This document shows positions 4,651 through 62,791 of a DNA stretch of 64,000 nucleotides, piece after piece (positions within the stretch are counted from its first letter, which is position 1; the number at the start of each line of letters is the position of its first letter). The stretch spans positions 1,120,001 to 1,184,000 of the forward strand of contig CM000434.1 in the NCBI GenBank assembly GCA_000165345.1. The letters run 5' to 3'. Made by a program: the position numbers and the translations under genes. The notes below the pieces were generated by a model. That model did not search any database and was not told where the DNA came from. It saw only the letters and a list, made by a program, of their open reading frames with translations.

Positions 4651-4903
4651 TTTTTTTAAATAATTTTGGCATAACCCAATATTTTTATTCGAAATAACAA
4701 TCCTGGAATAAACAATTGACAACAGAATATGCAAATATTAATGCATTTTGATCGATCTTAGTTAGCAATTGATACTATAATTAAATGTTTATTGTTTTTT
4801 CAAGTTTGTGAATAAATTCTTTAGGTTATTTTAAATCTCTAATTATTATAATGTTAACATAATCATCAACATTTTTTGGACCCAATCAAAAGTTTGCCTT
4901 TGG

Positions 4904-4924
4904 GATGCATGCATGCATGCATTT
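4904..4924. repeat. (GCAT)n microsatellite / tandem GCATGCA motif array
   Basis: The sequence gatgcatgcatgcatgcattt lies inside a 2.4-kb ORF-free region. Confidence 0.7.
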
Positions 4925-6812: not shown

Positions 6813-6823
6813 TTTGGGCGGGC
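6813..6823. promoter_or_regulatory. E2F-like box TTTTGGGCGGG about 170 bp upstream of the TVP38-like gene
   Basis: GGCGGG core motif. A further box lies at 6477..6486. Confidence 0.45.
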
Positions 6824-6982
6824 AAATGGCAATATTGTAAGATATTACCTGCAAATCAGGGCTTGAATTTGGAGAGTAGAAAAAAAAATTTGAAGATCTA
6901 AAATAAGAATCAAAATAGTTTGAAGGATTCATAAGATTGTAGCTGGGTATTTCTACCAGTTAAATTCCAACAATAATTCAAG

Positions 6983-9836: not shown

Positions 9837-12800
9837 TTAAATAAAGTAATAAAATTCATTGATATCAAAATTCCTATTTCCAATTTGTGGAATTGGTGGA
9901 AAGAATGGAACCAAAGAGTCTTGGCTTCCAATATATAAGTTATTATAAATTCTCCAATAGACACTTCTAACTTTCTTTGCTGGGTGGAAGAGCCCCTGCA
10001 AAAGGTAGTTTAAGATAACTCCAGGACCTAGGGCGACTCTAAATGCATCTAGGGCTTCGTATACAGCTTGAACTAAATGAGGAGAGTTCTCAAAGACGTT
10101 TGGCCAAAGAAAGTTAAGTAGATGGATTAGAGCATCATTGCATCCTGTCCCTGCTACTCCTAAAGCCAAATGCTTACAAGCCCATGCTGCTGTTTGCCTA
10201 TGAACCTGATCTCTATCTGTAAGAGCTACCTCCAATAAAGGAGTTAAAGCATAAATATAATCCTTTGACATTGTTCCAATGTATTCAAACATAAATGAAA
10301 GAGTCTTTAAAACTCCATTTTGGACATTAAGGTCTGGAATCCTATATTCATTCATTATAGCTGGAAGTACTGTGTAAGGCATACAAATTTCTGAAATTAT
10401 AGCAATAGCAATAGTAGTACAAACTCTAAGTTGTCTCTCTTGTACTCTTAAGTTGTTTAACAAAGTTACTAATACATCTTGTGGTCCTATAGTCTTTGCA
10501 ATATGACCAAAAGTTTTGACTGATGCTCTCCTAATAGACTTCTTATTAGCTTTAAGACTATCTAAAAGATCAAAACAAATTCTGTCCCATTCTTTAGGAG
10601 ATACAAAATCACCTCCTTTCTTTGCACAGCATCCTAAAAGCTGTATGATATTTTCTTGTACTTTTTCATGTCTATTTTTCAGAATTGGGGTTAATCTTGG
10701 AACTAATTCTTTGATTGGAGGGCTTAATTTCTCTACTCTTACTTGAGTTACTATTGCATGTAATGCTCCAATAATACTCCCAAGAACTTCTGGATATTCT
10801 TCGCCTAAATATTCGTATAGAAATAATCCAATATGAGCAATCATTTGTTCTTCTTCACATTGTTTCATAACTCCAATAATACCAGCTACTAAATCTGCAG
10901 CTGTTTGTCTTGCTCTTGGAGAAGGAGTATTAAGACGCCATCTAATAATTGAGGATATTTGGGGTAAGTATTGTTTAGATCTTGTTCCAAGTAAAGTTAA
11001 TATTCTACCTACATTTTCAACAACAGACGAATCCTCGTCAGTAGAACTTTCCTGAAAGATGTATAATATTCCATCAACTAAGAGTTTTTCCAGTCTCTGT
11101 TCCAAATGAATTACTGGAACAATCTCCATTACATTTCTGACAGTTTCTAAGGCTTGAATTCTAAATGTCTCACTACCATCTCTGAGAAATATTAGTAATC
11201 CATCCAAAATAGGCTCCAATCCAACTTGTTTAGAAAGTGAAACTGTTGTATTTATGACCAATTTTGAGGTTCTTTTATCCAAAGAATTACGACTAGTCCA
11301 AAATTGTCCAAAGAAAGGTCCAAGAAGCTTTTGCTTAACAAACTCTGACCCAATTTCTTCAACAGAAACACATTGTTCCAGAACTCTCAGGACGATTCTT
11401 TTCATTTCATCATCCTGTGAACCAAATTCCCTTACTAGTACAGGAGAGATTTCCTTAATATAATAACAAGCTTGATTTGTTTCCATAAGAGAAATCATTT
11501 GTCCCATGGCTTTAAGGTAACTTGCCAAATTTCGACTTCTATATTCAGAAATCCCTTTCCAAATTTGTCCCAGAATTGGTTCAAAAGCCTCAATGCCATA
11601 AGGTGACGAAGCTTCAGCTAATGATGCAAGTGAGAGAGCTGTAATTACTCTAACTTTTTGATTTTCATCACTTAAACCATGAGAAATAATTTGGACTAAA
11701 CTCTTCAAGTGAGGGAGAACTGAGCTCCCATGCAAAATAGCTATTTGTTGGACAATCCTAATTCCAGTATGCCTTGCTTGCCAACTCTTCTTACTCTGAC
11801 AAACCGCTTGTAGAAAGATAACCAATGAGGGAATTCCCATAGCTGAGGCCAGAATAGCAAAAGCCTTAGCAGTAGTATTCCTCACATACTCATCAGGATG
11901 ATCTATATCTGGTCTCATAGTTGCAATCATAGTAGCCAGTCCAACAGCCTTTGCAAGATTTGAAATGATTTCTCTTCCTTCTTGGCGAGCATAATAATCT
12001 TGATCTATCAACATTGGTTCTATTACAACCAAAATCTTATGAACATATGGTTTAACTTTCTCTCCTAGACGTTGGAGGATTCTGTCTAAAGCTTTAACAA
12101 GCATATGCCTTTCCTGCTCTTCCAAAGTAGATTGCATTAGCAATGGAAGAAGATGATTTAGAATAATTCCAGGTCCATGATCACGAGCAGTTTCTACAAT
12201 CTGTTTCATTGCCTTTCTTCTAAGTATTGGAGCTCCATTTTTTATTTTCAATAAAAGTGTTAATACAAGTCGCTCGTTAACTTCCTCAGGAGAAAGGTCA
12301 TCATCAGAAATATTAGAAAAGAGTTTCCCAAAGAAATGGAAGTCTTCTATTCTTAGAGATAACTCTCCAAGTTCAGAATGAAATACCTGTCTCATAAAAC
12401 CTTGCTGGGGAACATCCTTACTTTCTCCCAATTCTTCTTGAAAAGATTTGGTTGGTTCAGGAATATCATATAAAGTAATTTTAGGTTCTAAAAGCTTTCT
12501 TTTGTTCTCCAAATTAGCTCTTCTAAGCTTCTCATATCCTTCAGGAGGTTTCACAATCTCGTACCCTTCTGAAGGGAGGATCTTGTCCAATTCCTCGTCA
12601 GTAAACTCTTTTTGAAAAGGTGGATGAAACCTTCCTTCTTCAGAAGTAGTTCTCTGGGCAGAACAAACCTCTGATGATTGTTCTGAACTATTAGTTTCAA
12701 CCGTTTCCTTAGCCTCTCTAAGGGTTTCCACTTCCCCATTGTCCCATCTTGACTTCTTTTGGTCCAGCTTCCCGCAACTACTAACTTCCTGATCCTCATC

Positions 12801-12932: not shown

Positions 12933-13845
12933 TCTCAAAAATCCTAATAACCCCACCAAAAAAGCTCAACAAGAGCAAAAAATAAGTGTGTTAAGAACTT
13001 TCTTATTTCTTAATCCACTTCTCTTTAATTTTGGGAAAATAACCTACAGGGATTTTCTTACTATATTAATATTAATCAATTCTGTTTGTTTTTGGCGGGC
13101 TATACTCCAAGTCAAAGAGCCTGAATTAATAAGGGCAAAGGTTGAGGGGAGAGAAAGAGTTAAAGAAAGTCCAAAGAGAGAAGTTATGACTTCATTTCTC
13201 ATTACCAGTTAGAATTTTTCAGTGTAATCCAAACTAATTTCATGCAATATGATAGTTCTATACTTAAAGAAGTAAGGAAGGAAGAGAAAACTTTTGGCGG
13301 GAAAAGTATAAAGGACAGAATTTATGAATTCAAGTATATATAGTTTTATTTAGCTTTCATCAAATTCGCACTAGTAACATAATAAATTGAGGAAAAACTG
13401 TTAGTTTAGAATATGAACATGAATAAGTTTGTTTTAGCTTAGAATTAGTATGAATACCCAATCTTGTGACTTTGTTAGAGAAGTCTGATAATAGACCGAT
13501 TTCAATGAGCAAGAACCAGAATTCAAGTTGGTCTCAAAGTAGTGATATTCCACAAGGAATACAAGTGAAAATAAATTTTTCCCTTCAAATATAAGGAGTT
13601 TGGTTACTAATATGCCCAATAATTCAGCAGAACCATTGCAGAGGAAGTATCCATCCAAGATGGAAAAATTGTTTGACTAAACGATTTAGAAATGCGAATG
13701 ACTAGCTTATAAATATATTAGTAATTAGGAAAGGTCACAAAAAAGAAAATTAGTTAAATTTTGTAACAAAAAAATGTTCATTTTTTTCAGAAGTTAATAA
13801 TTTAAACTTAAACACCTACATGCTATTTTAACAAATTCCCCACAC

Positions 13846-13870
13846 GGCGCCACCCCTCCGGCGCCACCCC
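13846..13870. promoter_or_regulatory. GC-rich island with two tandem GGCGCCACCCC boxes (E2F-like double site)
   Basis: The sequence ggcgccacccctccggcgccacccc sits in otherwise about 80% AT intergenic DNA, roughly 735 bp upstream of the beta-tubulin ATG. Confidence 0.45.
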
Positions 13871-14598
13871 ACGCATATTCAAGTAACTTCGGGAAGCACC
13901 TCAAGAAATGAAACGGTGGGAGAAACGAATGTAGGAAAACAAGAGGGAGATCTATGAGTTGATAAGTAAATGCTTCAAAAGAATGTACGTGAAGTAGTAA
14001 TATTCATATTTGAACATTTATGCTTTTTTTTTTTTTAGATGAACTAGTAATTTAGGAGTTTAGCGCGAATAAATAGGAACATCATATATTGAGAATAGTA
14101 GAATCCAGGTAGAATGGGAGAAAAAAGAGAAAGAAGTGCAAAGAAAATGTATTTTAATAGCTGTTTTAGTTTAGAGGAAAAAAAAAAAGAAAATTAATGG
14201 AAAAAACATTAATAATAAGCTTGGATAAAATCTACATAGTCCCAATCCCCCCTGACCCGCTTCTATAGTAATCCATATGGAAGCCTGATTTCTGCTTGAT
14301 TTCATACGTAATTTTTACTTAAAAAGTGGGGTCCGTCATTGAATAGTATAATTTCAAGTGTTTTTCTTTGTGTGGAATAATTGGAGGTATAATTCTATTA
14401 ATTATAAGGAATATCTCAAAATAGAATTCGTTAAGATCTCGCAACTTGTGGTAAGTAAATGATCAAAATCCCCAAGAAAAGGTTGGGTAATCTTCTGGCT
14501 ATTGGGGAACTTGAATTATAGATTATAATAAGTTGTTGATTACTATAATTTGTAGGATATTCATATTAATTGATTCCTAATTACCATTAATAAGATAA

Positions 14599-16024
<1,426 letters not shown>

Positions 16025-16324
16025 ACTTCTTGGACATAAATCAAACCATTGGGAAGCTATCCTCATGGGGTGGCTATAGTCGATTTCATCATTTTTCCCA
16101 TAGATCTGCTATCGGGAGAATATTTCAGATTCTGCTACCCTATTATAATACGCGTTTAGCTTGCAGGGCATCATAATTTAGAACTTTTGTAGAATTCCGG
16201 AATTTCTCACAATCCAGGCATCATTTAGCACAAACATTTCAAACCTTCCAACAATAAGCTCATTCTTTAATTTATTTTTTCCCCCTAAACAATTCTTTAA
16301 TCATTTTACACGTATGTGCGCTAT

Positions 16325-16428
16325 CCACATTATGCATGCAATTCTGCAATACTGCCAGCATACCGGTATTCATGCAGTACTTGCGTGTGTGTGGGGAGGT
16401 TTTATCAAGAAATTTCTTGTGGACAAAT
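16325..16428. promoter_or_regulatory. Composite intergenic module (ATCCACAT, ATGCATGCA, ACCGGTAT, GTGGACAAAT) between the convergent beta-tubulin and CWC2 3' ends
   Basis: The sequence ctatccacattatgcatgcaattctgcaatactgccagcataccggtattcatgcag...cttgtggacaaatt shows the same motif set and order as at least 10 other intergenic sites in the window. Confidence 0.4.
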
Positions 16429-19110: not shown

Positions 19111-19311
19111 CTAATTTGTATTCATTTCCTCTTTTGGCCTTTCTGCATTTCTTATCCTCTTAAAGAACTCAGTCTAAATGAGTTGGTTAAAATTTCAATT
19201 TTGGCGCCATATGGGAGTATCAAAAAAGCTTACCTCTAGTTCCTTGCTTGTAATACCTGAACAGACCACAGTTCCTTCATCAATCTGGTACTGTATGAAT
19301 GGCTTTGACAT
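19111..19311 (-). CDS. Candidate unannotated two-exon small ORF (46 aa), hypothetical
   Basis: ATG at 19311..19309. Exon 1, 19311..19234, reads MSKPFIQYQIDEGTVVCSGITSKELE and ends phase 0 at GTAAGC (19233..19228). The acceptor is TCATTTAG with its AG at 19175..19174. Exon 2, 19173..19111, reads TEFFKRIRNAERPKEEMNTN then stop. The region lies between two convergent 3' ends yet carries three E2F-like boxes (19199..19210, 19441..19450, 19644..19655). Confidence 0.25.
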
Positions 19312-19745
19312 ATTCATCTGTTTTATAACTTCAAGAGATACTGGGTCACTTTGAAAGTTAGATTAGAAATCAAAAAGTTGAGTAAGTTCTCGGATCCTGT
19401 GGCTTGCAACGAAGAGGCTTTCCTAGAAGTTACACTAAATCCCCCCGCCATATTTTAGCCACTAAATCCATCCCCTTAGAAACTCTTTTTTACTCAATAT
19501 GAAAACATACCTCTGAACAAATAATCCTCTTTGACAATTTACCATTAAATCAAACAAAAATTCAAAACTAATATTATTATCTTTGAAGAAACGAAAAAAA
19601 AAAGTTAGACTTAATATATTATTAATATGAAAATAATTACGGGTTTGGCGCCAATATAACCTGAAAATACATGCATTAAATGACGTGGCAATGGAAGAAT
19701 AAAATTCAAACTTGCGTATATTAGCAGGCTATTGACAAGGACATT

Positions 19746-25195: not shown

Positions 25196-25281
25196 TATCC
25201 ACATGAAGTGTCAAATTTGCATGGTATATTTTATGCATGCAAACACCGGTATAGGAATGTGTGCAATAATGTGGACAAATA
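25196..25281. promoter_or_regulatory. Composite module (ATCCACATG, GTCAAATTTGCATGG, ATGCATGCA, ACCGGTAT, GTGGACAAAT) in the divergent promoter between the RAD51-paralog and the COWP-like gene
   Basis: The sequence is atccacatgaagtgtcaaatttgcatgg...tatgcatgcaaacaccggtatagg...atgtggacaaat. Confidence 0.45.
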
Positions 25282-28889: not shown

Positions 28890-29031
28890 ATATAATTTTA
28901 TCATTCTAGTTTTAATTAATTTATATTAATTCTTAAAGTTTATTTTTTCTTCTCATTATTATGATTATTCTTTAAACCCTGATTTGTCACTTTTACCGTT
29001 TTATTACGTGGCATTTTTTCTGATATATTAT

Positions 29032-29080
29032 TATCCACATTAATTCCAAATGCATGCATGCATGCAAAAAACACGTAATT
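29032..29080. promoter_or_regulatory. Composite module (TATCCACAT, TGCATGCATGCATGCA, ACACGTAATT) in the tail-to-tail region between the DEAD-box and roadblock genes
   Basis: The sequence is tatccacattaattccaaatgcatgcatgcatgcaaaaaacacgtaatt. Confidence 0.4.
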
Positions 29081-29151
29081 ATAGGTTAACAATTATTCAG
29101 TTTCTTTATTATTATATTTTGAAAAATTTTTAGATAACTTAATTAATTTCA

Positions 29152-29876
29152 TTATCCAGATAAAGCGTTATTAATGTTGTTAAACTTAATATGTACTTTT
29201 CCAATAGAAGCATTATATTCAAACCATACAATTAAGAATAGATTTTTAAAGTGCGTGTGACCAATGATAAATTTCCCATTAGAACTTTCTAAATAAAAGT
29301 CTTTAATAGTGTGATTATTAGAATTATATTCGTTAAAAGAGCTAACTAATACTGAAGAAATATGTTTAATTTGTGAATTTGTTTCTGAATTTTCTTTTTT
29401 CATTCCCAAAGAAAAAATACCTCCTTCTTTATTTACTAAGCTAAAGTAAAACAATTTAGTTATTTGCTTGTTTCCTTAAAGAAATATGATTAGCCTCCTT
29501 GAATATATTTTAAATATGTCAAATAATAGTGTTGAAGTCCTGTGAAATATAACTAAAAATAATCCCAAAATTTCATTTGGAATTTTGTTATTTTTAACTG
29601 AAATATATCCCACCCAAAAAAATTATTTATTGTAAGGATAATATTTCCAACACATACACACACAACCTCTCAAAGCTTTTGATTTGTAGGATTCAAAGAA
29701 TTATTGAAATAAATATTTATATTTATTTAATATTTATAAATACTTATACAATATATATTATTCTGTTGATAGAGAAATGGAGACAACCTAGCTCAAACTT
29801 ACATTATTGCTTTTATTTCATCACTTTCACAAATTTCTCGATTTAAAAGTTCATTCAAGTTTTTTGAATTGATCAT
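29152..29876 (-). CDS. Roadblock/LC7 (MglB) family dynein light chain-like protein, two exons; absent from the ORF track as a complete gene
   Basis: Exon 1, 29876..29803, has ATG at 29876 and reads MINSKNLNELLNREICESDEIKAI plus AT. The donor GTAAGT is at 29802..29797 and the intron is 362 nt. The acceptor TTTTACTTTAG has its AG at 29442..29441. Exon 2, 29440..29152, reads (I)LVNKEGGIFSLG...FKNLFLIVWFE... The 120-aa product aligns to roadblock ([35 protein letters not shown]). The track ORF 29152..29454 starts at a TTG. E2F-like boxes lie at 29930..29942 (54 bp upstream) and 30186..30198. Confidence 0.5.
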
Positions 29877-30603
29877 TTTTTATTTATTATATTACCATTT
29901 TTTCTTCAATATTGAAAAATGGCCCAAAATTCCCGCCAAAATTTTTATATTTTCAAGTTAAATCAAATATGCATGCATACATGCATATTACATGTATATT
30001 AACAAAAAATTAATTTTTCAAAATAAAAAGAAAACAATAATAAACAATAATAACTAAACAATTGATTATATTTATTCCAATACAAATGTTTATATTGAAT
30101 TTGTTCTTCTTCTATTACAATAATAAATTTCTTTTATTATTGTAGATTCAACAAATTATTTTAATATTAAATTTCATCATGAATCTTTTGGCGGGAACGT
30201 CCAACATAGAAATCAGAATAACAGAAAAAATAAATTTAAAACTTTACAGAATATTAAATCAAATGGTATCGAGACGAGACGAGACAAATAACAATACAAG
30301 ATTTTTCTTCTTCATATTGGCAGAATTAATTTTTTTTACTTGATAGTGATTTTTTTAAATTATAACTAACGAATCTAATATATAGGTATAAATTTTGAGC
30401 ATATTTTTGGTGGATTTACTATAGGAAATTTGACTTCATAAAAATCTCTTTGAGACTGCGATAAGCTTGATAAATGACTTCCTCAGCTAAATAAGTATTT
30501 CAAATATGTTTTTTCTTTCCTTTCTTACTTTTCTCCTCTTTCTCTCACTTTCCTTCTTCCCTTCTTTCTCTCCCCATTCTATTTAGCTAATCCTTCCAAT
30601 CAT

Positions 30604-35003: not shown

Positions 35004-35120
35004 CATCCACATGCTCGAATACGATTTTGCATGTATACCGGTATGCAAATTTTTTTTAAGAATTAAAATAATTTTTTGTAATACCGGTACCGCCCCACAT
35101 TTGGGCGGGAATTTCCCGAG
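35004..35120. promoter_or_regulatory. Divergent promoter block between SUB1 and PRP19: composite module (CATCCACATG, TTTTGCATGTATACCGGTATGCAAAT, ATACCGGTACC) plus the near-palindromic E2F-like box TTTGGGCGGGAATTTCCCGAG
   Basis: The motifs lie at 35004..35014, 35025..35050, 35081..35096 and 35100..35120. Confidence 0.45.
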
Positions 35121-35472: not shown

Positions 35473-37131
35473 ATGTCATTAATTTGCTCAATTTCAGGAA
35501 CTACTCCTGAAGATCCTGTGATCTCAAAGACAGGATATATCTTTGAAAAAAGACTCATAGAGGAGTACATAAGATGCAATAATAGCTGTCCAATCACAAA
35601 GAGTGAGCTTTCTTTGGATGATTTGATTCAAGTTAAGTCCAAAAGTAATTTAAAGCCAAGATTGATTAAAAATACAAGTATTCCAGGTATTCTTGACTCC
35701 CTTAGAACAGAATGGGATGCAATGGCAATGGAGATGTTCCAGCTTAGATCTGAGCTTGAACAGACCAAATCACAACTGACTCATAGTCTTTATCAACATG
35801 ATGCTGCTTGTAGAGTGATTGCCAGAATTACTAGAGAAAAAGACCAAGCCATTAGTAGGTTAGCTGAAATCCAGAATAGTATTCTTGAGAAGGATGAAGA
35901 TAATATTACTAGTCTTCAAAGTGTAGGAGGTAAAAGGATTAGAGCAGAAGATAATTTCGTTAATATCCCAGAAGACGTTATAGACCTTTTTACTGAATAT
36001 TCGGATAAAATGCGACCAATTCGAAAAAAACAGTCATTCCCAGACCTTATACCTGCTGAACAAGTCAAAGAATTTTCATTAAAGAGTGAAATAAAACTCA
36101 AAGAGAACTGTAACATAGAGGTTGGAGTAGCTTTCAATGACGAAATTTACGTCTCTGGAATGGAAAATGGCGAGATTCTTGTATCAAGCATAGAATTTGA
36201 TAGAAATGAGATATCTTCTATCCCTATAAGTTATCCACAAAATTGTGAACAAGCCGTTTCTATTTTCGCCATCGAAAAATATTCAGGAAGTCAATACTCA
36301 TCTAAAAATACTAGCCAGCTCCTCTCCTCCTTAAATGTTCTTGCTTGCTTTCAAAACTCAAATAAGATTCATATATTCTCTAGAAACCAAGAAGATGATG
36401 AATCTTTTAACTTATCGCTCATGGATTTTAACTCTTCTTTTGAATCAAACATCATTATCAACTCACTCGAAAAACACCCTTTAGGAATGCATATAATTGC
36501 AAATTCTTCAAATAAAGGCCTATTTTCCATGTTTGATCTGGAATCCAGAAAACAACTTTTCCTACATCAACTTGAACAAAATAATTCATATTCACAACTC
36601 AAACCACATCCTGATGGCCTTATTCTTGGAGGAATTGTACCCAATGGGAATATTGTTGATATATGGGATATTAGAAATCTAGAGAAAATTTCATCCCTTG
36701 AACACCCCACGAAAAATAATAATATTGACCATAACGACCCAAATATTAGCAGAAACTCCAGCCTTTGCTTCTCAAATAATGGATACTATTTGCTTTCTAC
36801 CTCCCTTGACAATAAAATCCACCTTTGGGATCTTAGAAAATCTGCTATTCTTGATTCTCTTGAACTATCCACACTCCCTAACAATTCTAACCTGATTTTA
36901 CAAATTGATGAAAGTGGAAAATATGCCTCCTGCTTTAGCAAAAACCATTTCTCCATTTTCTCACTCTTCAATAAACACAAACTACAACTTATCTCATCCT
37001 TGTCCAATTTCTCTAATAGAAATAATAATAATAATCTCCCAGACAATATCCACCATATTCACTTCAACCAAAATCTTAATTCATTCTCCTCATTATGCCA
37101 CAGTGGAATTATTCGTATGTGGACAAATTAA
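35473..37131 (+). CDS. PRP19: Pre-mRNA-processing factor 19 (PRP19/PSO4): U-box E3 ligase plus coiled coil plus WD40
   Basis: The track start at 35428 is TTG; the first ATG is at 35473. The N-terminus MSLICSISGTTPEDPVISKTGYIFEKRLIEEYIRCNNSCPITKSELSLDDLIQVK matches the PRP19 U-box ([32 protein letters not shown]...). The C-terminal half has WD-like repeats (IWDIRN, HLWDLRK). Confidence 0.85.
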   Translation: MSLICSISGTTPEDPVISKTGYIFEKRLIEEYIRCNNSCPITKSELSLDDLIQVKSKSNLKPRLIKNTSIPGILDSLRTEWDAMAMEMFQLRSELEQTKSQLTHSLYQHDAACRVIARITREKDQAISRLAEIQNSILEKDEDNITSLQSVGGKRIRAEDNFVNIPEDVIDLFTEYSDKMRPIRKKQSFPDLIPAEQVKEFSLKSEIKLKENCNIEVGVAFNDEIYVSGMENGEILVSSIEFDRNEISSIPISYPQNCEQAVSIFAIEKYSGSQYSSKNTSQLLSSLNVLACFQNSNKIHIFSRNQEDDESFNLSLMDFNSSFESNIIINSLEKHPLGMHIIANSSNKGLFSMFDLESRKQLFLHQLEQNNSYSQLKPHPDGLILGGIVPNGNIVDIWDIRNLEKISSLEHPTKNNNIDHNDPNISRNSSLCFSNNGYYLLSTSLDNKIHLWDLRKSAILDSLELSTLPNNSNLILQIDESGKYASCFSKNHFSIFSLFNKHKLQLISSLSNFSNRNNNNNLPDNIHHIHFNQNLNSFSSLCHSGIIRMWTN

Positions 37132-37144
37132 TCACACGTAATGA

Positions 37145-37203
37145 AACACCGGTATATGCTTGCATGCAGAAAAATTTGCAATGCATGCATTTTATAATAT
37201 ATA
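37145..37203. promoter_or_regulatory. Composite module (CACACGTAAT, CACCGGTAT, GCTTGCATGCAG, CAATGCATGCA) in the tail-to-tail gap between PRP19 and the DDX21-like helicase; the GTGGACAAAT element overlaps the PRP19 stop codon (37127..37139)
   Basis: The sequence is atcacacgtaatgaaacaccggtatatgcttgcatgcagaaaaatttgcaatgcatgcattt. Confidence 0.4.
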
Positions 37204-37329: not shown

Positions 37330-39477
37330 TTAAAAACGCCTTCCTCCCCTTGAGAACCCACCTCTGGAACCCATTGAGCCAGAGCCTCCTCCTCTGGAAC
37401 CCATTGAGCCAGAACCTCCGCCTCTCGAACCTCCTGATTGTCTATATCCAACCTTGTTTGAAATATGTTGGCTGTTCATTCTGCCATTATGGCCAAAATC
37501 AGCATTATTATCAGTAACTGGTATTGATAACTCTGGTAAATTACTTGTAGCTGGAATAATCTGGAAGAAGCCTGAACCGTTATTATTCTTTGGAGTAAAG
37601 TTAGAAATTGCACTCTCCCACTGCCTAATTGAGCCCAGTGGAACATCAAAAACTGCACCATCTCCTTTCTTTAACAACGTCATACATTGTATTCTTTCTA
37701 TTAAACCCTCACAACCTCTTAAATTGCTCTTAAGACATCTCCATACGTAACTATTACTTGCAATTGGCTCTTTAAGCCTATTAAAAGTAATCATATAGCT
37801 CTTAAAATCTTCTCTACCATTCAATACTGAGCGATGAGGAATCTTCTTTAGATCATTATTTATACCTGTTAACTCTAATAAACAATGACTTAAAGCTCTT
37901 ACAGCACAATCCGGAATCTCTGGCATATCATCATCCATATCATTATCATTGATATTTGACTCAGCTTCAGTCTCCTCATCATCAGAATTACCTAATCTAT
38001 TCCTTTTTCTAGATGCCTTACCTGTTAGCTTTCTCCATAAACCTTGAATGATATGCTTAGCAGGATCTCTAACGCAATCCAACATTGCTGAGGGTATATC
38101 TTTTTCTAATAGATCCTTACCTATAGAATCAGCAGTCTTTTGTAAAATCTCTTCATATTGAGGTACACCAATTCTTTGAAAACTTATCTTACTTGCCTTC
38201 TCAATGCTTGATAAGAATGGATAATCTGACATATTACAAAACATTATAGCAGTTCCGAACTTTCCTGCTCTTCCTGTTCTTCCTGATCTATGTATATAAG
38301 TATCAATATCACGTGGAGGAGCTAATTGTATTACTACTGCAACATCATCAATATGTAATCCTCTTGCTGCAACATCTGTTGCTACTAAACAACGATACCT
38401 TCCTTCTTTAAAAGCTTGTAAAGCTATTTCTCTTTGATTTTGTTGTATATCACCATGTAATACCTGACACATCTTACTAATCTCACTTCTCATAGCTATT
38501 TCATTAGCTGTTTGCTTTGTTTCTGTAAATATAATACATTTTCCATTAATTCCCGCATACATTGTTATAATATCTCCTAATAAACCAGTTCTTTGAGGAT
38601 ATGCACACTGTATTGCCAAATGCCTAATCCTACTTCTGGCTGCTGCCTCATCCTCCTCCTCTCCATGAATTGAAATATGAGTCACGTCTACTGTAACAGT
38701 ATCACTTGACATAATCTCAGTTAAAATATTCTTTACCCATGGAGGCACAGTAGCACTGAATAGTAATACTTGAAATTTATTTTGTCTACTATGTGTTTCT
38801 CCATCTCCCGTTTCTTTTCTGACGCAGTCAATAATCTTATCAACAGTCTCTTTAAATCCCATCTCCAACATCTTATCAGCCTCATCCAATGTTAGCACTG
38901 ATATTTTACTAACATTTAAAATACCACGCTCAATAAAATCTAAAACTCTTCCTGGACATCCTACAACAATATCAACTCCCTTCTTTATTTCCTGAATTTG
39001 AGGATATTCAGGAGAACCACCATATACGCTACAAACTTTATACCTATCCTTTCCCTTCATTAACTCAAATTCATTTGATACCTGTTGTGCTAATTCTCTT
39101 GTTGGAAGTAAAACTAAAACTAACGGACGCCTACCATGCTTATTTGGATCAAATTTACCCTTCTTTAACAGTCTCTCAATGACTGGAAGAACAAATGCCA
39201 ATGTCTTACCTGTCCCAGTTTTCGCTTTCCCTAATACATCCTTCTTACCATATATAGACTCGAATGACTGAGCCTGAATAGGAAATAATCTCTCAATACC
39301 TCTACTCCTCAAAATCTCCCTACTCTCATCGCTTAATGGGAACCTATCTATTGAGCCATCTACCTCACTCTCCAACTTTCTTTTCTTATGATCCATATTG
39401 CTTTCCTTTTTCTTTGTTCTTCCTGTCAATAATGACATAACCACTACTATCCCGTCCTTAAGAGTCATAAGCGCCAC
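37330..39477 (-). CDS. DEAD-box RNA helicase, DDX21/DDX50 (Gu)-like, with a GUCT-type C-terminal domain and an RGG/GS-repeat tail
   Basis: 715 aa. Motif I is AKTGTGKTLAFVLP, II DEADKMLEMGF, III SAT and VI HRSGRTGRAG. The C-terminus reads GGSRGGGSGSMGSRGGGSGSMGSRGGFSRGGRRF. The ATG at 39477 directly abuts an E2F-like box (39479..39491), so the true start may be a downstream in-frame ATG (M4, M14 or M27). Confidence 0.8.
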   Translation of the reverse strand: MALMTLKDGIVVVMSLLTGRTKKKESNMDHKKRKLESEVDGSIDRFPLSDESREILRSRGIERLFPIQAQSFESIYGKKDVLGKAKTGTGKTLAFVLPVIERLLKKGKFDPNKHGRRPLVLVLLPTRELAQQVSNEFELMKGKDRYKVCSVYGGSPEYPQIQEIKKGVDIVVGCPGRVLDFIERGILNVSKISVLTLDEADKMLEMGFKETVDKIIDCVRKETGDGETHSRQNKFQVLLFSATVPPWVKNILTEIMSSDTVTVDVTHISIHGEEEDEAAARSRIRHLAIQCAYPQRTGLLGDIITMYAGINGKCIIFTETKQTANEIAMRSEISKMCQVLHGDIQQNQREIALQAFKEGRYRCLVATDVAARGLHIDDVAVVIQLAPPRDIDTYIHRSGRTGRAGKFGTAIMFCNMSDYPFLSSIEKASKISFQRIGVPQYEEILQKTADSIGKDLLEKDIPSAMLDCVRDPAKHIIQGLWRKLTGKASRKRNRLGNSDDEETEAESNINDNDMDDDMPEIPDCAVRALSHCLLELTGINNDLKKIPHRSVLNGREDFKSYMITFNRLKEPIASNSYVWRCLKSNLRGCEGLIERIQCMTLLKKGDGAVFDVPLGSIRQWESAISNFTPKNNNGSGFFQIIPATSNLPELSIPVTDNNADFGHNGRMNSQHISNKVGYRQSGGSRGGGSGSMGSRGGGSGSMGSRGGFSRGGRRF
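37361..37435. repeat. 30-nt tandem coding repeat (2.5 copies) encoding the RGGGSGSMGS units of the helicase C-terminus
   Basis: The repeat cctctggaacccattgagccagagcctcct occurs in two copies plus a partial third on the + strand. Confidence 0.7.
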
Positions 39478-43174: not shown

Positions 43175-43287
43175 TTTACTTAATTACTTTTTAGTTCAAT
43201 TAACTTCAACATATAATCATCAAATTTTTTTGAATATCTTGTCATGTCATCTTATTATTATTCTTGAAAAACTATGACATGCCCACA

Positions 43288-43380
43288 TAATTGCATGCAA
43301 ATAATTATTTACATTTTAGTCATACAAAATTGCATGCAAATGCCGGTATAGAGAAAATAATTCATTTATCCACATGAAAA
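43288..43380. promoter_or_regulatory. Composite module upstream of the cryptopain gene (ATTGCATGCAAAT x2, GCCGGTATAG, TTATCCACATGAAAAT)
   Basis: The sequence is attgcatgcaaat...attgcatgcaaatgccggtatagag...ttatccacatgaaaat, 115-205 bp upstream of ATG 43174. Confidence 0.45.
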
Positions 43381-44848: not shown

Positions 44849-45601
44849 ATTAGTATGAACTGATTAACCTTCCAACAAAAGTAATCTCTTTAATTTTCTG
44901 AATATATCTCAACTTATTAAAACCAGTAATCTATACATGAAAAAAAGAAATGTATTGACAAAAGTTATTTAGCTTTTAATTTATATGTTTCTAGGCATCC
45001 CAACTAAAAATTCTAATTTGAATTCCTGCATGCAACGGTGATTAGGTTTGCATGCAGGAATTATATTTTTTATCTTTTTGAAAGCAAATTCTAAAAAAAA
45101 ATATACTAAGTTCTGATTTCCTTATCAAATCCTAAATTTCCATTATTTCCGCTTTTCTTAATTTTTCCTCCAATCAAATACACACTGAATACTATCTTTT
45201 ATTAATTGTATGTATACCAAATCCAATAAACATCCATTCTAATTCCCAACTTCCCCACCTTTAGTAGTTCTGTCTTTATTATTACGAAATACATTGCATG
45301 CAATTTATAAATAATTAGGCGGGAAATTTGAGCCATATTCATCAGTTACGAATATTGAAAATAAAAACTCAAAAATTAAAGGTATATAATCTCATAGAAG
45401 CTTCTACTTTAAATATGTATAGTTTGTGAAATTGGCTAAGAAAAAGTATCTGTCTAAAGCCATTTGTATCAAGCCAAATTGTCTAGTTCAGAACAATAAG
45501 GAGCTCAATATTTATATTATTTGAGCCAACAAAGGACAATCAATAGCCGTCTTTTCCCATAAACCCAATGGTGGAAGCGAATTAAAAGACATGCTCAAAA
45601 T

Positions 45602-48684: not shown

Positions 48685-48786
48685 TTTGCATGCATTTCTT
48701 TTTTTATTATTGACTACATGCGCAATACTCACATGCAAATTTAGTACCGGTGTTTTGATTACGTGTAATAATTTTATGTGGACAAC
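48685..48786. promoter_or_regulatory. Composite module (TTTGCATGCATTT, ACATGCAAATTT, TACCGGTG, ATTACGTGTAAT, ATGTGGACAAC) upstream of the gene at 49246
   Basis: The sequence is tttgcatgcattt...acatgcaaatttagtaccggtgttttgattacgtgtaataattttatgtggacaac. Confidence 0.45.
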
Positions 48787-49245: not shown

Positions 49246-50967
49246 ATGAAAAGTAATGAAATTTTTGAAAGAATCAAAAAGAGCTTTAAGACAAGGGTGG
49301 AGGACTTTAAGCAAGGCAGACAGAGTTGGAGATTGAAGGAATGGCATCATCTACAATCAATACTGTATTTAATCTATGGAGCAGGAGCGCTCGTTTTTGT
49401 GAGATTGATAGCTAATTCAAACCCAGATAACAACAACTATGATCATTTTGTGAATGATCCAAATGATCCAGGGAGTTCATTCACCCATTGTGGGATTACT
49501 CCAATGTTTAATATGATACCAATTCCGGGATCTTACATATTATTAATATACTCAGTTTATTCTTTATCAATAATAAGCTTGACAATTTCATTCTTATCAT
49601 TTATATTGGGATTCAGTTTCAAATTTTTCAGCAGAATTCCTAGAAGCTACTTTTTCTCTCCATCAAAAAGAACAAGAGTATTGGGTTTTTGCTGCAAGAT
49701 ATTACCAATAATTATCAGAATTTTGAATTTGTTTTTTATTCTACTTTTGGTCATCCCATTTATATATATCACAACCAGTGGAGCTTGTTACAGGAGATTA
49801 GTTAGATTTGAAAGAAATAAAGTACAAAATTGCAGGATATGGGTTAATAAATGTGCAAAAGACCACCGAATTTTTGGAAGGCATTTAGAATGCAGTTTAA
49901 GAAAAAACTTTAAACACTTTCCAACGGAAATTGTTGAAGATCCCACAATTGGCGAAAATCTCGACATTATTATTGGAGGTCCAATGCCTCTGTTATGTCC
50001 TATGTGCAATGAAGTGAGAATGGACCCAAAATCACCTTTATATAAAGGAGAAGCTTATGTTGAGCAACTTAAGTCATCTATCTCTAAAATGGAAGCAATT
50101 AATATTAAAGACAGGTCATTATATCAGGTAGAAGCATTATCGCTTATTCAATTAAGTAATCATATTTCCACAAGATCCGAGAATATTCCTAATATTTATA
50201 CAATCCAAGATTACGAAGAGATGATAAAGCCTATTATGTTTAATAATATTTCACCATTAATGCAAAAGATCATTAGTAATCGCCAGAATTTATATGGCTA
50301 TTTTAAACTTTTGCCATTTTCACTTATCCAACTCGAATCTAATGTGAAAGGCAAGACCAATGAAAAAGAAAAAAATGATGATTTGGTTTCTCTAGAAGAG
50401 CCTATTAGTATTGATTTTAATTCTGAATATATTAAAAATTATGATAATTATAGACCCTCCATACAACTACCTTCAAAAGTTAGTATTCCATCCAAATTTA
50501 AGTCAATTGTTGAAAAATATGCTGCAGCTCTTTCATCACAGGTAAATGGTGATACTTTATTTAGTGAAGAAGTTACTCAAAAAAAAGATACTTTTCCAAA
50601 CAAAAATCCTAAAAAGAATCAACATAAAGAGGTTGACAAAGCAACTCTAAATAATTCATATAAAAGCACATTTTATTTTAGTGGCGACTCTAACCCCACT
50701 CCACTAACTATAGATCAAAGTATCGATTTAAACAGAGAATTTGAAGCTGCAAGATATCAAATACAAGTTTCCATGCACGAAGGAAGCAACTTTTCAAGAT
50801 CAATCTTTGTATTTATGCTCATCTCTCTCATTTTTTGGGCATTGACACGCTTCTTTTCTTTTGCTATCTTTGATACTACCAGAAATGAGGCCTGCTTTTA
50901 TGTTCCTAATTCAAAAAGAACGCTCATTTGGTCCAAGCTAAGAACTTTCTTGGACATACTAAGCTAA
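49246..50967 (+). CDS. Hypothetical polytopic membrane protein
   Basis: 573 aa. Hydrophobic helices are at about residues 35-55, 95-120 and 150-175, with a C-terminal TM (IFVFMLISLIFWALTRFF). It has a CPMCNEV motif and no recognisable domain. Confidence 0.45.
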   Translation: MKSNEIFERIKKSFKTRVEDFKQGRQSWRLKEWHHLQSILYLIYGAGALVFVRLIANSNPDNNNYDHFVNDPNDPGSSFTHCGITPMFNMIPIPGSYILLIYSVYSLSIISLTISFLSFILGFSFKFFSRIPRSYFFSPSKRTRVLGFCCKILPIIIRILNLFFILLLVIPFIYITTSGACYRRLVRFERNKVQNCRIWVNKCAKDHRIFGRHLECSLRKNFKHFPTEIVEDPTIGENLDIIIGGPMPLLCPMCNEVRMDPKSPLYKGEAYVEQLKSSISKMEAINIKDRSLYQVEALSLIQLSNHISTRSENIPNIYTIQDYEEMIKPIMFNNISPLMQKIISNRQNLYGYFKLLPFSLIQLESNVKGKTNEKEKNDDLVSLEEPISIDFNSEYIKNYDNYRPSIQLPSKVSIPSKFKSIVEKYAAALSSQVNGDTLFSEEVTQKKDTFPNKNPKKNQHKEVDKATLNNSYKSTFYFSGDSNPTPLTIDQSIDLNREFEAARYQIQVSMHEGSNFSRSIFVFMLISLIFWALTRFFSFAIFDTTRNEACFYVPNSKRTLIWSKLRTFLDILS

Positions 50968-51010: not shown

Positions 51011-51092
51011 GTCGATCTGCCCGAGTGGTTAAGGGGCTTGACTAGAAATCAAGTGCGGTCTCCGCGCACAGGTTCGAATCCTGTGGTCGACG
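51011..51092 (+). tRNA. tRNA-Ser (anticodon AGA), class II with a long variable arm
   Basis: The sequence is GTCGATC-TG-CCCGAGTGGTTAAGGGG-C-TTGAC-TAGAAAT-CAAG...long variable arm GTGCGGTCTCCGCGCAC...AGGTTCGAATCCTGT-GGTCGAC-G. The 7-bp acceptor stem pairs, including one G-U. U33 precedes AGA. The T-loop is GGTTCGAATCC. 82 nt. Confidence 0.85.
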
Positions 51093-51992: not shown

Positions 51993-52067
51993 ATACCGGC
52001 GCAGTACACGTAATTTTTTTTGAATTTCTTAAAATCCTATACCGGCATTTTTAAGTACCGGTATGCG
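51993..52067. promoter_or_regulatory. Composite module (ATACCGGCGCAGTACACGTAATTTT, ATACCGGCATTT, TACCGGTATGCG), 83-157 bp upstream of the beta-adaptin ATG
   Basis: Three ACCGG(C/T)A elements and one ACACGTAAT. Confidence 0.4.
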
Positions 52068-54865: not shown

Positions 54866-54937
54866 ACACGTAATTTGTGCATGCATGCAAAAAAGTTTAC
54901 AAGAAAATAGATGACGTGTTTGCATGTGGACAATACG
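54866..54937. promoter_or_regulatory. Composite module (CACACGTAATT, TGTGCATGCATGCAAAA, GACGTG, TTTGCATGTGGACAATACG) between the beta-adaptin gene and the next gene
   Basis: The sequence is cacacgtaatttgtgcatgcatgcaaaaaag...gacgtgtttgcatgtggacaatacg. Confidence 0.4.
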
Positions 54938-56955: not shown

Positions 56956-57027
56956 GGTACCGGTACCTATCATAAATTTTTATATTGTCTCGAGATCCAA
57001 TTTTTAGATATGCATGCATGCAAAAGT
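56956..57027. promoter_or_regulatory. Composite module (12-bp palindrome GGTACCGGTACC and ATATGCATGCATGCAAAAG) in a tail-to-tail intergenic region
   Basis: The sequence is ggtaccggtacctatcataaatttttatattgtctcgagatccaatttttagatatgcatgcatgcaaaag. Confidence 0.35.
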
Positions 57028-62364: not shown

Positions 62365-62393
62365 AAATGTCATTTTACCAAAATTCGAGCATC

Positions 62394-62470
62394 ATGCAAA
62401 CATTTGTAACATTGCCAGTAAAAATGACTGCATGTGGAAATATGTCATTGCATGCAGACACGTGTAAATA
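62394..62470. promoter_or_regulatory. Composite module (CATGCAAAC, TGCCAG, CTGCATGTGGAAAT, CATTGCATGCAGACACGTGTAAAT) upstream of Cpn60
   Basis: The sequence is catgcaaacatttgtaacattgccagtaaaaatgactgcatgtggaaatatgtcattgcatgcagacacgtgtaaat. Confidence 0.4.
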
Positions 62471-62791
62471 ATATGCAATTTCTGCTGCAATACAATAATT
62501 GTGCGAATATTTAGTGGAGCTAAGAGAAAGAGAATAGTACTTAAGATTTGAAGAATTCATATAAGAGTTTTCTAAGTAGCACACATCAAATTTAAAAATA
62601 AATAAAAGAGTAAATACATCCATATTTACAACAATTGGCTGTATAGATAAGAATAAGAGCATATTTTTGAAGATTTGAAAATAAACTAGGGGTACAAACA
62701 AATTATATATAATAAAATGAGATAGAATTAAATGATTAATTAATATAAAATTGGTCATAAAGTCAAAAATGATAATAATTGTCTCTAAATA

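What the first reader, a model, noticed from the sequence alone, without database searches (positions are those of the whole stretch)
43288..43380. Recurrent composite intergenic cis-module (GCATGCA + ACCGGTA + CACGTAAT + GTGGACAA/ATCCACATG) present in at least 12 copies
The same small vocabulary recurs in loose order within 60-120 bp windows. The elements are (A/T)TGCATGCA(A), (T/C)ACCGG(T/C)A(T), (C)ACACGTAAT(T), (AT)GTGGACAA(AT) or its reverse ATCCACATG, plus minor GTCAAATTTG and TGCCAG. The copies are at 5468-5492, 16325-16428, 25196-25281, 29032-29080, 35004-35096, 37127-37203, 43288-43380, 45025-45058, 48685-48786, 51993-52067, 54866-54937, 56956-57027 and 62394-62470. Most sit 80-250 bp upstream of start codons: cryptopain, Cpn60, beta-adaptin, PRP19/SUB1, the COWP-like gene and the 49246 gene. 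GCATGCA alone is a known AP2-type motif in apicomplexans. The tight co-occurrence with ACCGGTA, CACGTAAT and GTGGACAA as a cassette is not something I can attribute to a described element.
Basis: seen in the sequence. Interest (0 to 1): 0.7.

Follow-up and report, generated by a model that had tools for sequence, protein, structure and literature searches.

The report
Conserved multi-motif promoter module in Cryptosporidium
Short clusters of four DNA words, one a known AP2-factor site and one (TACCGGTA) apparently undescribed in this parasite, recur between genes on Cryptosporidium parvum chromosome 6, are conserved across species, and most likely act as a second class of promoter distinct from the common E2F type.

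Summary
The window is C. parvum chromosome 6 (cgd6_47xx-49xx). The motifs are real and far above chance. In noncoding DNA, GCATGCA occurs 46 times vs 1.0 expected, ACCGGTA 13 vs 0.56 (none in 44 kb of CDS) and CACGTAAT 6 vs 0.26. ATGTGGAY occurs 10 times in the whole window vs 3.8. They cluster with each other but not with the equally intergenic E2F motif. Eight sites carry at least 3 of the 4 motif families within 120 bp (null 0.7, p<=0.001), fewer than the "at least 12" claimed. The minor words TGCCAG and GTCAAATTTG are at chance level.

The target module upstream of cryptopain keeps its order and spacing from C. parvum to C. felis. Four modules lie between convergent genes. One abuts the 5' end of a published antisense lncRNA, so "upstream of start codons" is only partly right.

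Best reading: a heterotypic transcription-factor-site cluster, that is, a non-E2F promoter class. There is a hint of 48 h (sexual-stage) specificity.

TGCATGCA is the known AP2_1 motif. ATGTGGACAA and CACGTA already appear unnamed in supplements of earlier papers. I found TACCGGTA in no Cryptosporidium paper I could search. This is a new member of a known kind, of moderate interest.

The parts
43281..43288 (-). Target module, element nearest to cryptopain: GCCCACAT (reads ATGTGGGC on the cryptopain strand). It is G-box-like.
   Evidence: Sequence. ATGTGGG is conserved in parvum, meleagridis, ubiquitum, canis and felis.
43292..43299 (.). Target module: TGCATGCA (AP2_1 palindrome), proximal copy.
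   Evidence: GCATG is invariant across 6 species.
43331..43338 (.). Target module: TGCATGCA (AP2_1 palindrome), distal copy.
   Evidence: Conserved.
43341..43349 (.). Target module: TGCCGGTAT, the B motif (TACCGGTA family). Its centre is 10 bp from the distal AP2_1 centre.
   Evidence: TA(T)ACCGG is conserved parvum to felis with the same spacing.
43368..43376 (-). Target module: ATCCACATG (reads CATGTGGAT on the cryptopain strand), the D motif. It points toward cryptopain, whose ATG is at 43174.
   Evidence: TGTGGA aligns in parvum, ubiquitum, canis and felis. C. meleagridis has TGTCGA, and in C. ryanae only TGGA aligns.
16308..16426 (-). Four-family module (C-like, D, A, B, G-box, D) between the convergent tubulin and CWC2 genes. 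It abuts the 5' end (16328) of the published antisense lncRNA Cp_lnc_291.
14220..16328 (-). Cp_lnc_291, a published lncRNA antisense to the whole beta-tubulin gene. It is assigned to lncRNA cluster 4, the 48 h-specific set.
   Evidence: Li 2021 supplementary FASTA mapped to the window. Expression row and cluster meaning.
25197..25278 (.). Module D-A-B-D in the divergent promoter between the 439-aa (-) and 432-aa (+) genes. The two D sites point outward.
29003..29079 (.). Module C-D-(TGCA)4-C, 114-190 bp downstream of the DEAD-helicase stop, in a 3'-3' region.
35005..35089 (-). Module D, B (flanked by GCATG half-sites), B, followed by G-box/E2F, in the divergent subtilisin/PRP19 promoter. D points to subtilisin.
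   Evidence: The B sites are conserved out to C. ryanae.
37117..37189 (+). Four-family module D-C-B-A-A. It starts in the last codons of PRP19 and fills the 198-bp gap between the convergent PRP19 and GU2 stop codons.
   Evidence: The A-A-B part is conserved in meleagridis, ubiquitum and canis, and two CCGGTA sites remain in felis.
45027..45056 (.). Two TGCATGCA copies only, 179-208 bp upstream of the CRT-like gene. Not composite.
   Evidence: Conserved.
48687..48785 (.). Four-family module A-B-C-D between the CCCH gene and the 573-aa gene. Cp_lnc_292 (-) starts 185 bp away at 48500.
   Evidence: Present in meleagridis, ubiquitum and canis.
51994..52063 (+). B-C-B-B cluster with no AP2_1 site, 87-156 bp upstream of beta-adaptin.
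54866..54933 (+). Module C-A-C-D, 62 bp after the adaptin stop and about 360 bp upstream of the 457-aa gene.
56958..57022 (.). A B (GGTACCGGTACC) plus A (TGCATGCATGCA) pair in a convergent 3'-3' region.
62432..62465 (-). D-like, A and C-like cluster 208-241 bp upstream of the TCP1/Cpn60 ATG. It lies inside the 3' end of an annotated 127-aa ORF.

Best explanation
The finding is a heterotypic cluster of transcription-factor binding sites. It forms a cis-regulatory (promoter) module of about 60-120 bp that defines a class of C. parvum promoters distinct from the dominant E2F/DP class.

It has four components. TGCATGCA is the established AP2_1 site for several ApiAP2 proteins. TACCGGTA is a palindrome, so it is probably bound by a dimer of unknown identity. 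It usually lies 8-14 bp from a GCATG core. (A)CACGTAAT has an ACGT core and looks like a bZIP site. ATGTGGA(C/T) is a directional word related to, but distinct from, the G-box. It usually points toward the transcript.

The module drives protein-coding genes such as cryptopain and subtilisin. When it lies between convergent genes, it drives antisense lncRNAs.

Shown: enrichment, mutual clustering, exclusion from E2F regions, cross-species conservation, and coincidence of one module with a published lncRNA 5' end.

Inferred: that proteins bind B, C and D, which proteins they are, that the other three convergent modules also start antisense transcripts, and that the module confers 48 h (sexual-stage) expression.
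For: (1) Each word is strongly enriched in noncoding DNA and nearly absent from CDS. In about 400 kb of genome-wide lncRNA sequence, TACCGGTA occurs only 4 times, which is chance level.

(2) A, B, C and D cluster with each other, and the intergenic control motif E2F does not. An unbiased neighbourhood scan recovers the same words. Eight clusters with at least 3 families compare with a null of 0.7.

(3) Independent genome-wide data from Li 2021 Table S3, covering 143 lncRNA upstream regions: motif5 (my D) co-occurs with AP2_1 (odds ratio 4.8, p=0.004). Strict GTCCACA sites do so in 8 of 10 cases (odds ratio 10, p=0.002) and are depleted with E2F.

(4) Phylogenetic footprinting: motif columns are 0.72 identical vs 0.51 for other intergenic columns, with B at 0.82 (p=6e-17 per column). 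The order and spacing of the target module are kept from C. parvum to C. felis even though C. felis is 50% GC.

(5) Cp_lnc_291 starts at 16328, 5 bp from TGCATGCA, about 33 bp from ATACCGGTAT and about 90 bp from GTGGACAA.

(6) A and B are palindromes and C and D occur in both orientations, as expected for sites on double-stranded DNA.

(7) The only two mRNA cluster-5 (48 h-specific) genes in the window, subtilisin and cryptopain, each sit directly downstream of a B+A+D module. Cp_lnc_291 is in the 48 h-specific lncRNA cluster.
Against: No binding, accessibility or transcription-start data were available.

The main statistics rest on one 64-kb window plus non-independent orthologues. About 19 kb of new C. 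parvum flank contained only 2.1 kb of noncoding DNA and no noncoding B, C or D site, so B and C were not replicated there.

The motif set was defined after inspection, although searches recover it without prior input.

Three of the four convergent-region modules have no published transcript starting at them (with a truncated file).

Several modules flank genes in other expression clusters (3, 6, 2), so stage specificity is weak: 3 of 5 assignable cases, counted post hoc.

The orientation rule for D is underpowered. Only 3-4 cases are informative, and the split is 8:4 in Li's table.

The module is largely absent from the orthologous C. andersoni locus.
Confidence: 0.72

Rival explanations
1. 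The module is a chromatin-boundary, nucleosome-depleted-region or roadblock-terminator element. A general regulatory factor of the Reb1/TTF-I Myb type binds TACCGGTA (compare yeast Reb1 TTACCCGG, recalled from my own knowledge). It insulates or terminates transcription between tightly packed genes, which would explain modules between convergent stop codons and just after stop codons.
For: Four of 13 modules lie in 3'-3' regions, and 4 of 7 convergent regions carry one. One begins inside the last codons of PRP19, and one lies 62 bp after the adaptin stop. The convergent PRP19/GU2 module is conserved. The resemblance of B to the Reb1 site is from memory only.
Against: TACCGGTA is not the Reb1 consensus. 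The module contains the activator-type AP2_1 site. One convergent module coincides with an lncRNA 5' end, which a promoter explains directly. Three short convergent gaps have no module. B also occurs in plain 5' positions such as adaptin and subtilisin. This rival is not exclusive of the promoter reading.
Confidence: 0.12
2. The words act at the RNA level, as elements in 5' or 3' UTRs (for example UGCAUG-type protein sites or a structured RNA) that control stability or translation.
For: Several modules must be transcribed as part of 3' UTRs, such as those for PRP19, the DEAD helicase and adaptin.
Against: A and B are perfect palindromes, and C and D occur on either strand relative to neighbouring genes. 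Modules also lie in divergent promoters. There is no Rfam match. Folding is unremarkable: z=-1.75, with 11 of 200 shuffles as stable, driven only by the two TGCATGCA copies pairing.
Confidence: 0.04
3. The modules are decayed copies of a dispersed repeat or miniature mobile element, not independently maintained binding sites.
For: In two modules D sites flank the other motifs as an inverted pair (16323/16419 and 25197/25269).
Against: No repeat family links the modules. Similarity is confined to the 6-10 bp cores, and order, orientation and spacing differ between modules. Each module is conserved at its orthologous position across species.
Confidence: 0.02
4. The pattern is a chance or compositional artefact of AT-rich intergenic DNA combined with post-hoc motif picking.
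For: At the 2-family level the cluster count is not above the null (12 vs 9.1). Two listed sites and both minor words are at chance.
Against: See the shuffle and Markov expectations, the E2F internal control, the unbiased scan, the permutation tests for 3 and 4 families, the conservation and the independent Table S3 replication for A-D.
Confidence: 0.02

Closest known systems
AP2_1 motif (5'-TGCATGCA-3'), the binding site of several ApiAP2 factors. Bankier 2003 noted it on this same chromosome. It is motif 1 of Oberstaller 2013 (PMC3734150) and appears in Table 3 of review PMC12246861.
   Same: It is identical in sequence to the A element. It is enriched in noncoding DNA and lies upstream of both mRNAs and lncRNAs.
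   Different: The published descriptions treat it alone, or with the G-box at the level of expression clusters. They do not describe tight physical clustering with TACCGGTA, CACGTAAT and ATGTGGAY, or the exclusion from E2F regions.
'Motif5 [TTGTCCACATK]' found by MEME within 100 bp upstream of C. parvum lncRNAs (Li et al. 2021, PMC7840661, Table S3).
   Same: The table lists TTGTCCACAAG at -97 and AATTGCATGCA at -14 for Cp_lnc_291, which is the 16.3-kb module.
   Different: It is reported only in a supplement, is unnamed, has no factor assigned, and has no noted association with AP2_1 or with mRNA promoters. I derived that association from their table.
G-box-like motifs (DTGTGGGG / G.GGGG) bound by ApiAP2 cgd8_810 (Oberstaller 2013).
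   Same: It shares the TGTGG core. A true ATGTGGG(C) sits at the proximal end of the target module. Oberstaller's Table S3 files TTGTATGTGGAAA under this family.
   Different: D reads ATGTGGA(C/T) with no G-run. G-box sites (TGTGGGG) show no association with A, C or D in the window, and only a weak one with B.
E2F/DP promoters (TTTGGCGCC / GGCGGGAA), the most abundant C. parvum upstream motif.
   Same: It is likewise a short, noncoding-restricted upstream element, found in the same window at 25 noncoding sites.
   Different: E2F sites are not associated with the module: 0-4 lie within 60 bp of A, B, C or D sites, against 0.9-2.5 expected. In the lncRNA set, AP2_1 and E2F are anti-associated.
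Oomycete upstream motif ATACCGGTAT / GTACCGGTA (Plasmopara halstedii streme-5; Phytophthora motif-9 of Seidl et al., as cited in PMC10031896).
   Same: It is the same palindrome as B and is also an upstream element of co-expressed genes.
   Different: It comes from a different lineage (stramenopiles). No factor is known in either system, and homology of the system is untested.

Membership tests
AP2_1 (TGCATGCA) ApiAP2 cis-element | Palindromic TGCATGCA core | tested here: met
   26 exact copies in the window, including two in the target.
AP2_1 (TGCATGCA) ApiAP2 cis-element | Over-representation in noncoding or upstream DNA | tested here: met
   23 noncoding copies vs 0.22 expected, and 3 in CDS.
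AP2_1 (TGCATGCA) ApiAP2 cis-element | Bound by AP2 domains (cgd2_3490, AP2-F and others) at these loci | not testable with these tools
   Only published PBM data exist for the motif itself.
Heterotypic cis-regulatory module (cluster of TF binding sites) | At least 3 distinct motifs clustered more than their individual densities predict | tested here: met
   8 clusters vs 0.70 expected (p<=0.001), and 3 four-family clusters vs 0.02.
Heterotypic cis-regulatory module (cluster of TF binding sites) | Motifs conserved above the flanking sequence in orthologous regions | tested here: met
   0.72 vs 0.51 identity. Alignment.
Heterotypic cis-regulatory module (cluster of TF binding sites) | Located at transcript 5' ends | tested here: inconclusive
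   One module abuts the assembled 5' end of Cp_lnc_291. Eight lie 80-570 bp upstream of ATGs. No TSS data exist for the rest.
Heterotypic cis-regulatory module (cluster of TF binding sites) | Target transcripts are co-expressed | tested here: inconclusive
   Subtilisin, cryptopain and Cp_lnc_291 are all 48 h-specific, but other module-flanked genes are in clusters 2, 3 and 6.
Heterotypic cis-regulatory module (cluster of TF binding sites) | Occupancy by sequence-specific proteins | not testable with these tools
   No ChIP, CUT&RUN or ATAC data were accessible.
E2F/DP promoter class | TTTGGCGCC or GGCGGGAA sites within the element | tested here: not met
   No E2F site in the target. E2F is not associated with A, B, C or D.
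G-box (G.GGGG) element | A G-run core (TGTGGGG) | tested here: not met
   D is ATGTGGA(C/T). Only the separate proximal ATGTGGGC in the target is G-box-like.
Li 2021 lncRNA-upstream Motif5 (TTGTCCACATK) | Sequence identity and location within 100 bp upstream of an lncRNA | tested here: met
   TTGTCCACAAG at -97 of Cp_lnc_291 is window 16419-16426.
Dispersed repeat / MITE | Sequence similarity across the whole element, plus terminal repeats and target-site duplications | tested here: not met
   No family links the modules beyond the motif cores.
Structured or known RNA family | Rfam match or unusually stable conserved fold | tested here: not met
   Only a tRNA-Ser was found in the window. Fold z=-1.75.
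Reb1-type general regulatory factor site / roadblock terminator | TTACCCGG-type consensus | tested here: not met
   B is TACCGGTA. The resemblance is partial and recalled from memory.
Reb1-type general regulatory factor site / roadblock terminator | Blocks read-through transcription or positions nucleosomes | not testable with these tools
   Needs nascent-RNA and MNase/ATAC data.

The most novel reading that the evidence does not exclude
TACCGGTA is the site of an unidentified dimeric DNA-binding protein, possibly shared with oomycetes, which use the same palindrome. It partners with a female or sexual-stage AP2_1-binding ApiAP2 (such as AP2-F or cgd2_3490) at a fixed spacing of about 8-10 bp. 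Together with the directional ATGTGGAY word, this composite code switches on a 48 h sexual-stage programme. That programme includes proteases (cryptopain, subtilisin) and antisense lncRNAs launched from 3'-3' gaps.
Probability: 0.15. Interest if true: 0.7.

Novelty: new member of a known kind. Interest (0 to 1): 0.45.

Why it matters
Gene regulation in Cryptosporidium is poorly understood. The 2025 review lists only six upstream motif families, and factors are known for three of them.

TACCGGTA is conserved and restricted to noncoding DNA. In this window it is the third most enriched noncoding word after AP2_1 and E2F, and it is physically coupled to AP2_1. It would therefore add a concrete bait for finding a new transcription factor.

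The module suggests a two-class promoter model (E2F versus AP2_1-module) that can be tested genome-wide. It also offers a sequence-level explanation for antisense lncRNAs that start at gene 3' ends, and possibly a handle on sexual-stage expression, which is a transmission-blocking target.

The evidence comes from one chromosome segment and no binding data, so this is a well-supported lead rather than a discovery.

Tried and rejected
- **ncRNA genes:** Rfam and tRNA scans found only tRNA-Ser at 51011-51092.
- **RNA structure of the target:** not significant.
- **Dispersed-repeat hypothesis:** rejected.
TGCCAG and GTCAAATTTG are not enriched.
- **My own candidate AAATTTGATGA:** not enriched.
- **Replication in new C. 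parvum flanks (L017, L018):** too little noncoding DNA (2.1 kb) to test B or C.
- **Published lncRNA at the PRP19/GU2 module:** none found in the truncated FASTA.
- **Literature on a factor binding TACCGGTA:** only cloning primers turned up.
- **Papers I could not read:** Bankier 2003 could not be fetched, and the PBM supplements of Oberstaller 2014 are not held. An earlier mention of B there cannot be excluded.
- **F-RBP preprint:** its motif (CAMCAACAR, in CDS) is unrelated.
- **Oberstaller 2013 clusters for cryptopain and subtilisin:** not found in the stored file.
- **Correction to my notebook:** That was my error.

Full report
**Identity and context.** Exact protein look-ups place the window on Cryptosporidium parvum chromosome 6. 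They identified cryptopain-1 (cgd6_4880), a CRT-like transporter, PRP19 (cgd6_4850), the GU2 helicase (cgd6_4860) and CWC2. Pfam hits on the public gene calls added beta-tubulin, and those calls gave a gene map for the whole window. The target interval, 43288-43380, lies between the stop codon of the CRT-like gene (43508, minus strand) and the ATG of cryptopain (43174, minus strand). That is 114-206 bp upstream of cryptopain.

**The observation.** All 13 listed sites contain the stated words. I call the four word families A, B, C and D.

| Family | Word | Noncoding count vs Markov expectation | Whole-window count vs shuffles |
|---|---|---|---|
| A | TGCATGCA | GCATGCA 46 vs 1.0 | not run |
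| B | TACCGGTA family | ACCGGTA 13 vs 0.56, none in 44 kb of CDS | TACCGGTA 5 vs 0.13 |
| C | (A)CACGTAAT | CACGTAAT 6 vs 0.26 | CACGTAAT 7 vs 0.55 |
| D | ATGTGGA(C/T) | not in the top list | ATGTGGAY 10 vs 3.8 |

ATCCACAT is simply the reverse complement of the D word. An unbiased k-mer survey of noncoding DNA puts A first, the known E2F words second and B third.

**Is it a cassette?** The main risk was that any two intergenic motifs would look clustered in a genome with intergenic regions of about 500 bp. E2F is just as noncoding-restricted and more abundant (25 noncoding sites), so I used it as an internal control.
- Every pair among A-D lies within 60 bp at about 5-11 times the permutation expectation (p<=0.006). 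E2F is not associated with any of them.
- With no prior motif list, the k-mers most enriched within 70 bp of noncoding GCATGC are CCGGTA, CGTAAT, ACACGT and ATGTGG(A).
- Objective enumeration gives 8 sites with at least 3 families in 120 bp (null 0.70, p<=0.001) and 3 sites with all four (null 0.02). At the 2-family level, 12 clusters is not above the null of 9.1.

The cassette is therefore real, but robust copies number 8, with 3-4 partial ones. The sites at 5468 and 45025 are not composite.

**Independent replication.** Table S3 of Li et al. 2021 lists MEME hits in the 100 bp upstream of lncRNAs genome-wide. Its unnamed 'Motif5 TTGTCCACATK' is the reverse complement of D. I read two parts of the table, covering 143 lncRNAs. 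Motif5 co-occurs with AP2_1 (odds ratio 4.8, p=0.004). Strict GTCCACA sites do so in 8 of 10 cases (odds ratio 10, p=0.002) and are depleted with E2F. I could not replicate B and C, because the 19 kb of new C. parvum flank held only 2.1 kb of noncoding DNA. As a background, TACCGGTA occurs 4 times in about 400 kb of lncRNA sequence. That is chance level, and about 30 times less dense than in the window's noncoding DNA.

**Conservation.** I fetched syntenic loci from C. meleagridis, C. ubiquitum, C. canis, C. felis, C. ryanae and C. andersoni.
- The target module keeps the order CATGTGGA, about 20 nt, TATACCGG, 3-4 nt, TTGCATGCA, about 35 nt, TTGCATGCA, ATTATGTGGGCA. This holds from C. parvum to C. 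felis, which is 50% GC.
- It is partly kept in C. ryanae and is reduced to TGCATGC plus a G-box in C. andersoni.
- Over six intergenic regions, motif columns are 0.72 identical against 0.51 for the rest, and B is the most conserved at 0.82.

**Position.** Only 4 of 13 sites lie 80-250 bp upstream of an ATG (cryptopain, CRT, adaptin, TCP1). Four more lie 240-570 bp upstream. Four lie between convergent stop codons:
- tubulin and CWC2;
- the DEAD helicase and subtilisin;
- PRP19 and GU2;
- the 457-aa and 262-aa genes.

The PRP19/GU2 module begins in the last codons of PRP19, fills much of a 198-bp gap, and is conserved out to C. canis and C. felis. The tubulin/CWC2 module abuts the assembled 5' end (16328) of the published lncRNA Cp_lnc_291, which runs antisense across the whole tubulin gene. 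Li et al. themselves list AATTGCATGCA at -14 and TTGTCCACAAG at -97 for that lncRNA. Cp_lnc_292 starts 185 bp from the 48.7-kb module. The simplest reading is that convergent-region modules are promoters of antisense transcripts. This fits Li et al.'s statement that antisense lncRNAs start near the 3' ends of sense genes and carry AP2_1 or E2F motifs upstream.

**Internal architecture.** There is no fixed order, but some tendencies recur.
- Half of the noncoding B sites lie 8-14 bp from a GCATG core. The spacing is exactly 10 bp centre to centre in the cryptopain module and the 25.2-kb module, and is kept in the orthologues.
- All seven noncoding D sites that have an annotated or published same-strand transcript nearby point toward it. 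The transcript starts 0-470 bp downstream.
- Only 3-4 of those cases are informative, and Li's table shows a modest 8:4 bias, so this tendency is tentative.

[quoted passage not shown] I mapped gene IDs using three anchors: tubulin is CPATCC_0016390, GU2 is 0016490 and CCCH is 0016540. On that mapping, the only two cluster-5 genes in the window are subtilisin and cryptopain. Each lies directly downstream of a B+A+D module. Cp_lnc_291 is in lncRNA cluster 4, with values of 5.5, 5.6, 5.5, 5.9 and 8.65. Other module-flanked genes fall in clusters 2, 3 and 6. The link to sexual-stage expression is therefore suggestive and post hoc. Several AP2_1-binding ApiAP2s are female-specific, which would fit.

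**Rivals.**
- A Reb1-like boundary or roadblock role for B would also explain 3'-3' positions, and it is not excluded. However, B does not match that consensus, and one convergent module sits at an lncRNA start.
- An RNA-level role is unlikely. A and B are palindromes, C and D occur in both orientations, there is no Rfam hit, and the fold z-score is -1.75.
- A dispersed repeat is excluded.
- Chance is excluded for the core claim.

**What is known and what is new.**
- A is the well-known AP2_1 motif, first noted on this very chromosome.
- D is recorded unnamed in Li 2021 Table S3. A D-like word was filed under G-box-like motifs in Oberstaller 2013 Table S3.
- The CACGTA core of C is a FIRE hit in the same table.
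- B has no hit in the main text or held supplements of Oberstaller 2013, or in the main texts of Oberstaller 2014, Mullapudi 2007 and the 2025 review, or in full-text searches. Table S3 of Li 2021 contains B-like ATACCGG sites only inside its unnamed 'motif4'.
- The same palindrome is an upstream motif in oomycetes.
- I could not read Bankier 2003 or the PBM supplements.

**Verdict.** The module is real, conserved and most likely a non-E2F promoter module. One component (B) and the combination itself appear undescribed. It is a new member of a known kind, of moderate interest.

Noticed in passing
window 51011-51092 (+): A tRNA-Ser (AGA) gene sits only 44 bp after the stop codon of the 573-aa gene (49246-50967). 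It is the only Rfam or ARAGORN hit in the window.
   Followed up: partly
window 8094-8693, 13094-13863, 17614, 19200-19644, 39484, 46054: These intergenic regions carry E2F words (TTGGCGCC, GGCGGGAA, TAGGCGGG) and none of the module words, apart from one G-box at about 13.8 kb. This suggests two largely exclusive promoter classes. TAGGCGGG (6 vs 0.08 expected) looks like a distinct E2F variant.
   Followed up: partly
L017:19525-19590 (C. parvum, about 6 kb beyond the window start): CCACATGCATGCA and GCCGGTATGCA lie 28 bp apart inside the annotated Rft-1 coding sequence, about 450 bp upstream of the ATG of the next gene (SAC3/GANP). The true intergenic gap there is only 50 bp. A promoter module may be embedded in the upstream gene's CDS.
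   Followed up: no
window 62375-62758 (-): An annotated 127-aa ORF with no Pfam hit overlaps the TCP1 upstream module (62432-62465) at its 3' end. Either the ORF is doubtful or the promoter lies within coding sequence.
   Followed up: no
window about 29100-29900 (-); L011:19271-19933, L016:19323-20021, L014:20521-20972, L015:18035-18465: A small spliced gene (119-125 aa) is called between subtilisin and the DEAD helicase in C. ubiquitum, C. meleagridis, C. ryanae and C. andersoni. It is not in the C. parvum GCA_031892065 calls, and the old BX526834 annotation has only an 83-aa ORF there. This may be a missed C. parvum gene. TGCATGCA at 29970 would be its upstream element.
   Followed up: no
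window 4581-6982: This divergent 'intergenic' region is unusually long (2.4 kb, about 23% GC) for a genome that averages about 0.5 kb. It contains (TGCA)4 at 4906-4921, a lone B site at 5472 and E2F and G-box words. It may hold unannotated transcripts.
   Followed up: no
window 43190-43227 (-): The block AAATTTGATGATTATATGTTGAAGTTAATTGAAC, between the module and the cryptopain ATG, is conserved out to C. felis. The word itself is not recurrent in the window. It is probably the cryptopain 5' UTR or start region.
   Followed up: partly
L013 (C. felis) and L012 (C. canis), whole loci: The syntenic locus is 50% GC in C. felis and 43% in C. canis, against 30-33% in C. parvum, C. meleagridis, C. ubiquitum and C. 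andersoni. The A and B motifs persist at orthologous positions despite this compositional shift.
   Followed up: partly
window 38880-39457 (+): The published lncRNA Cp_lnc_257 is antisense to the 5' part of GU2, on the strand toward which the PRP19/GU2 module (37117-37189) points, but 1.7 kb downstream of it. The short-read assembly may have truncated its 5' end.
   Followed up: no
L015 (C. andersoni) 12005-12087 and whole locus: In the gastric species C. andersoni this 22-kb locus has no B and no E2F words and only two AP2_1 sites, and its intergenic gaps are much shorter (83 bp between GU2 and PRP19). The regulatory vocabulary may differ between gastric and intestinal Cryptosporidium.
   Followed up: no
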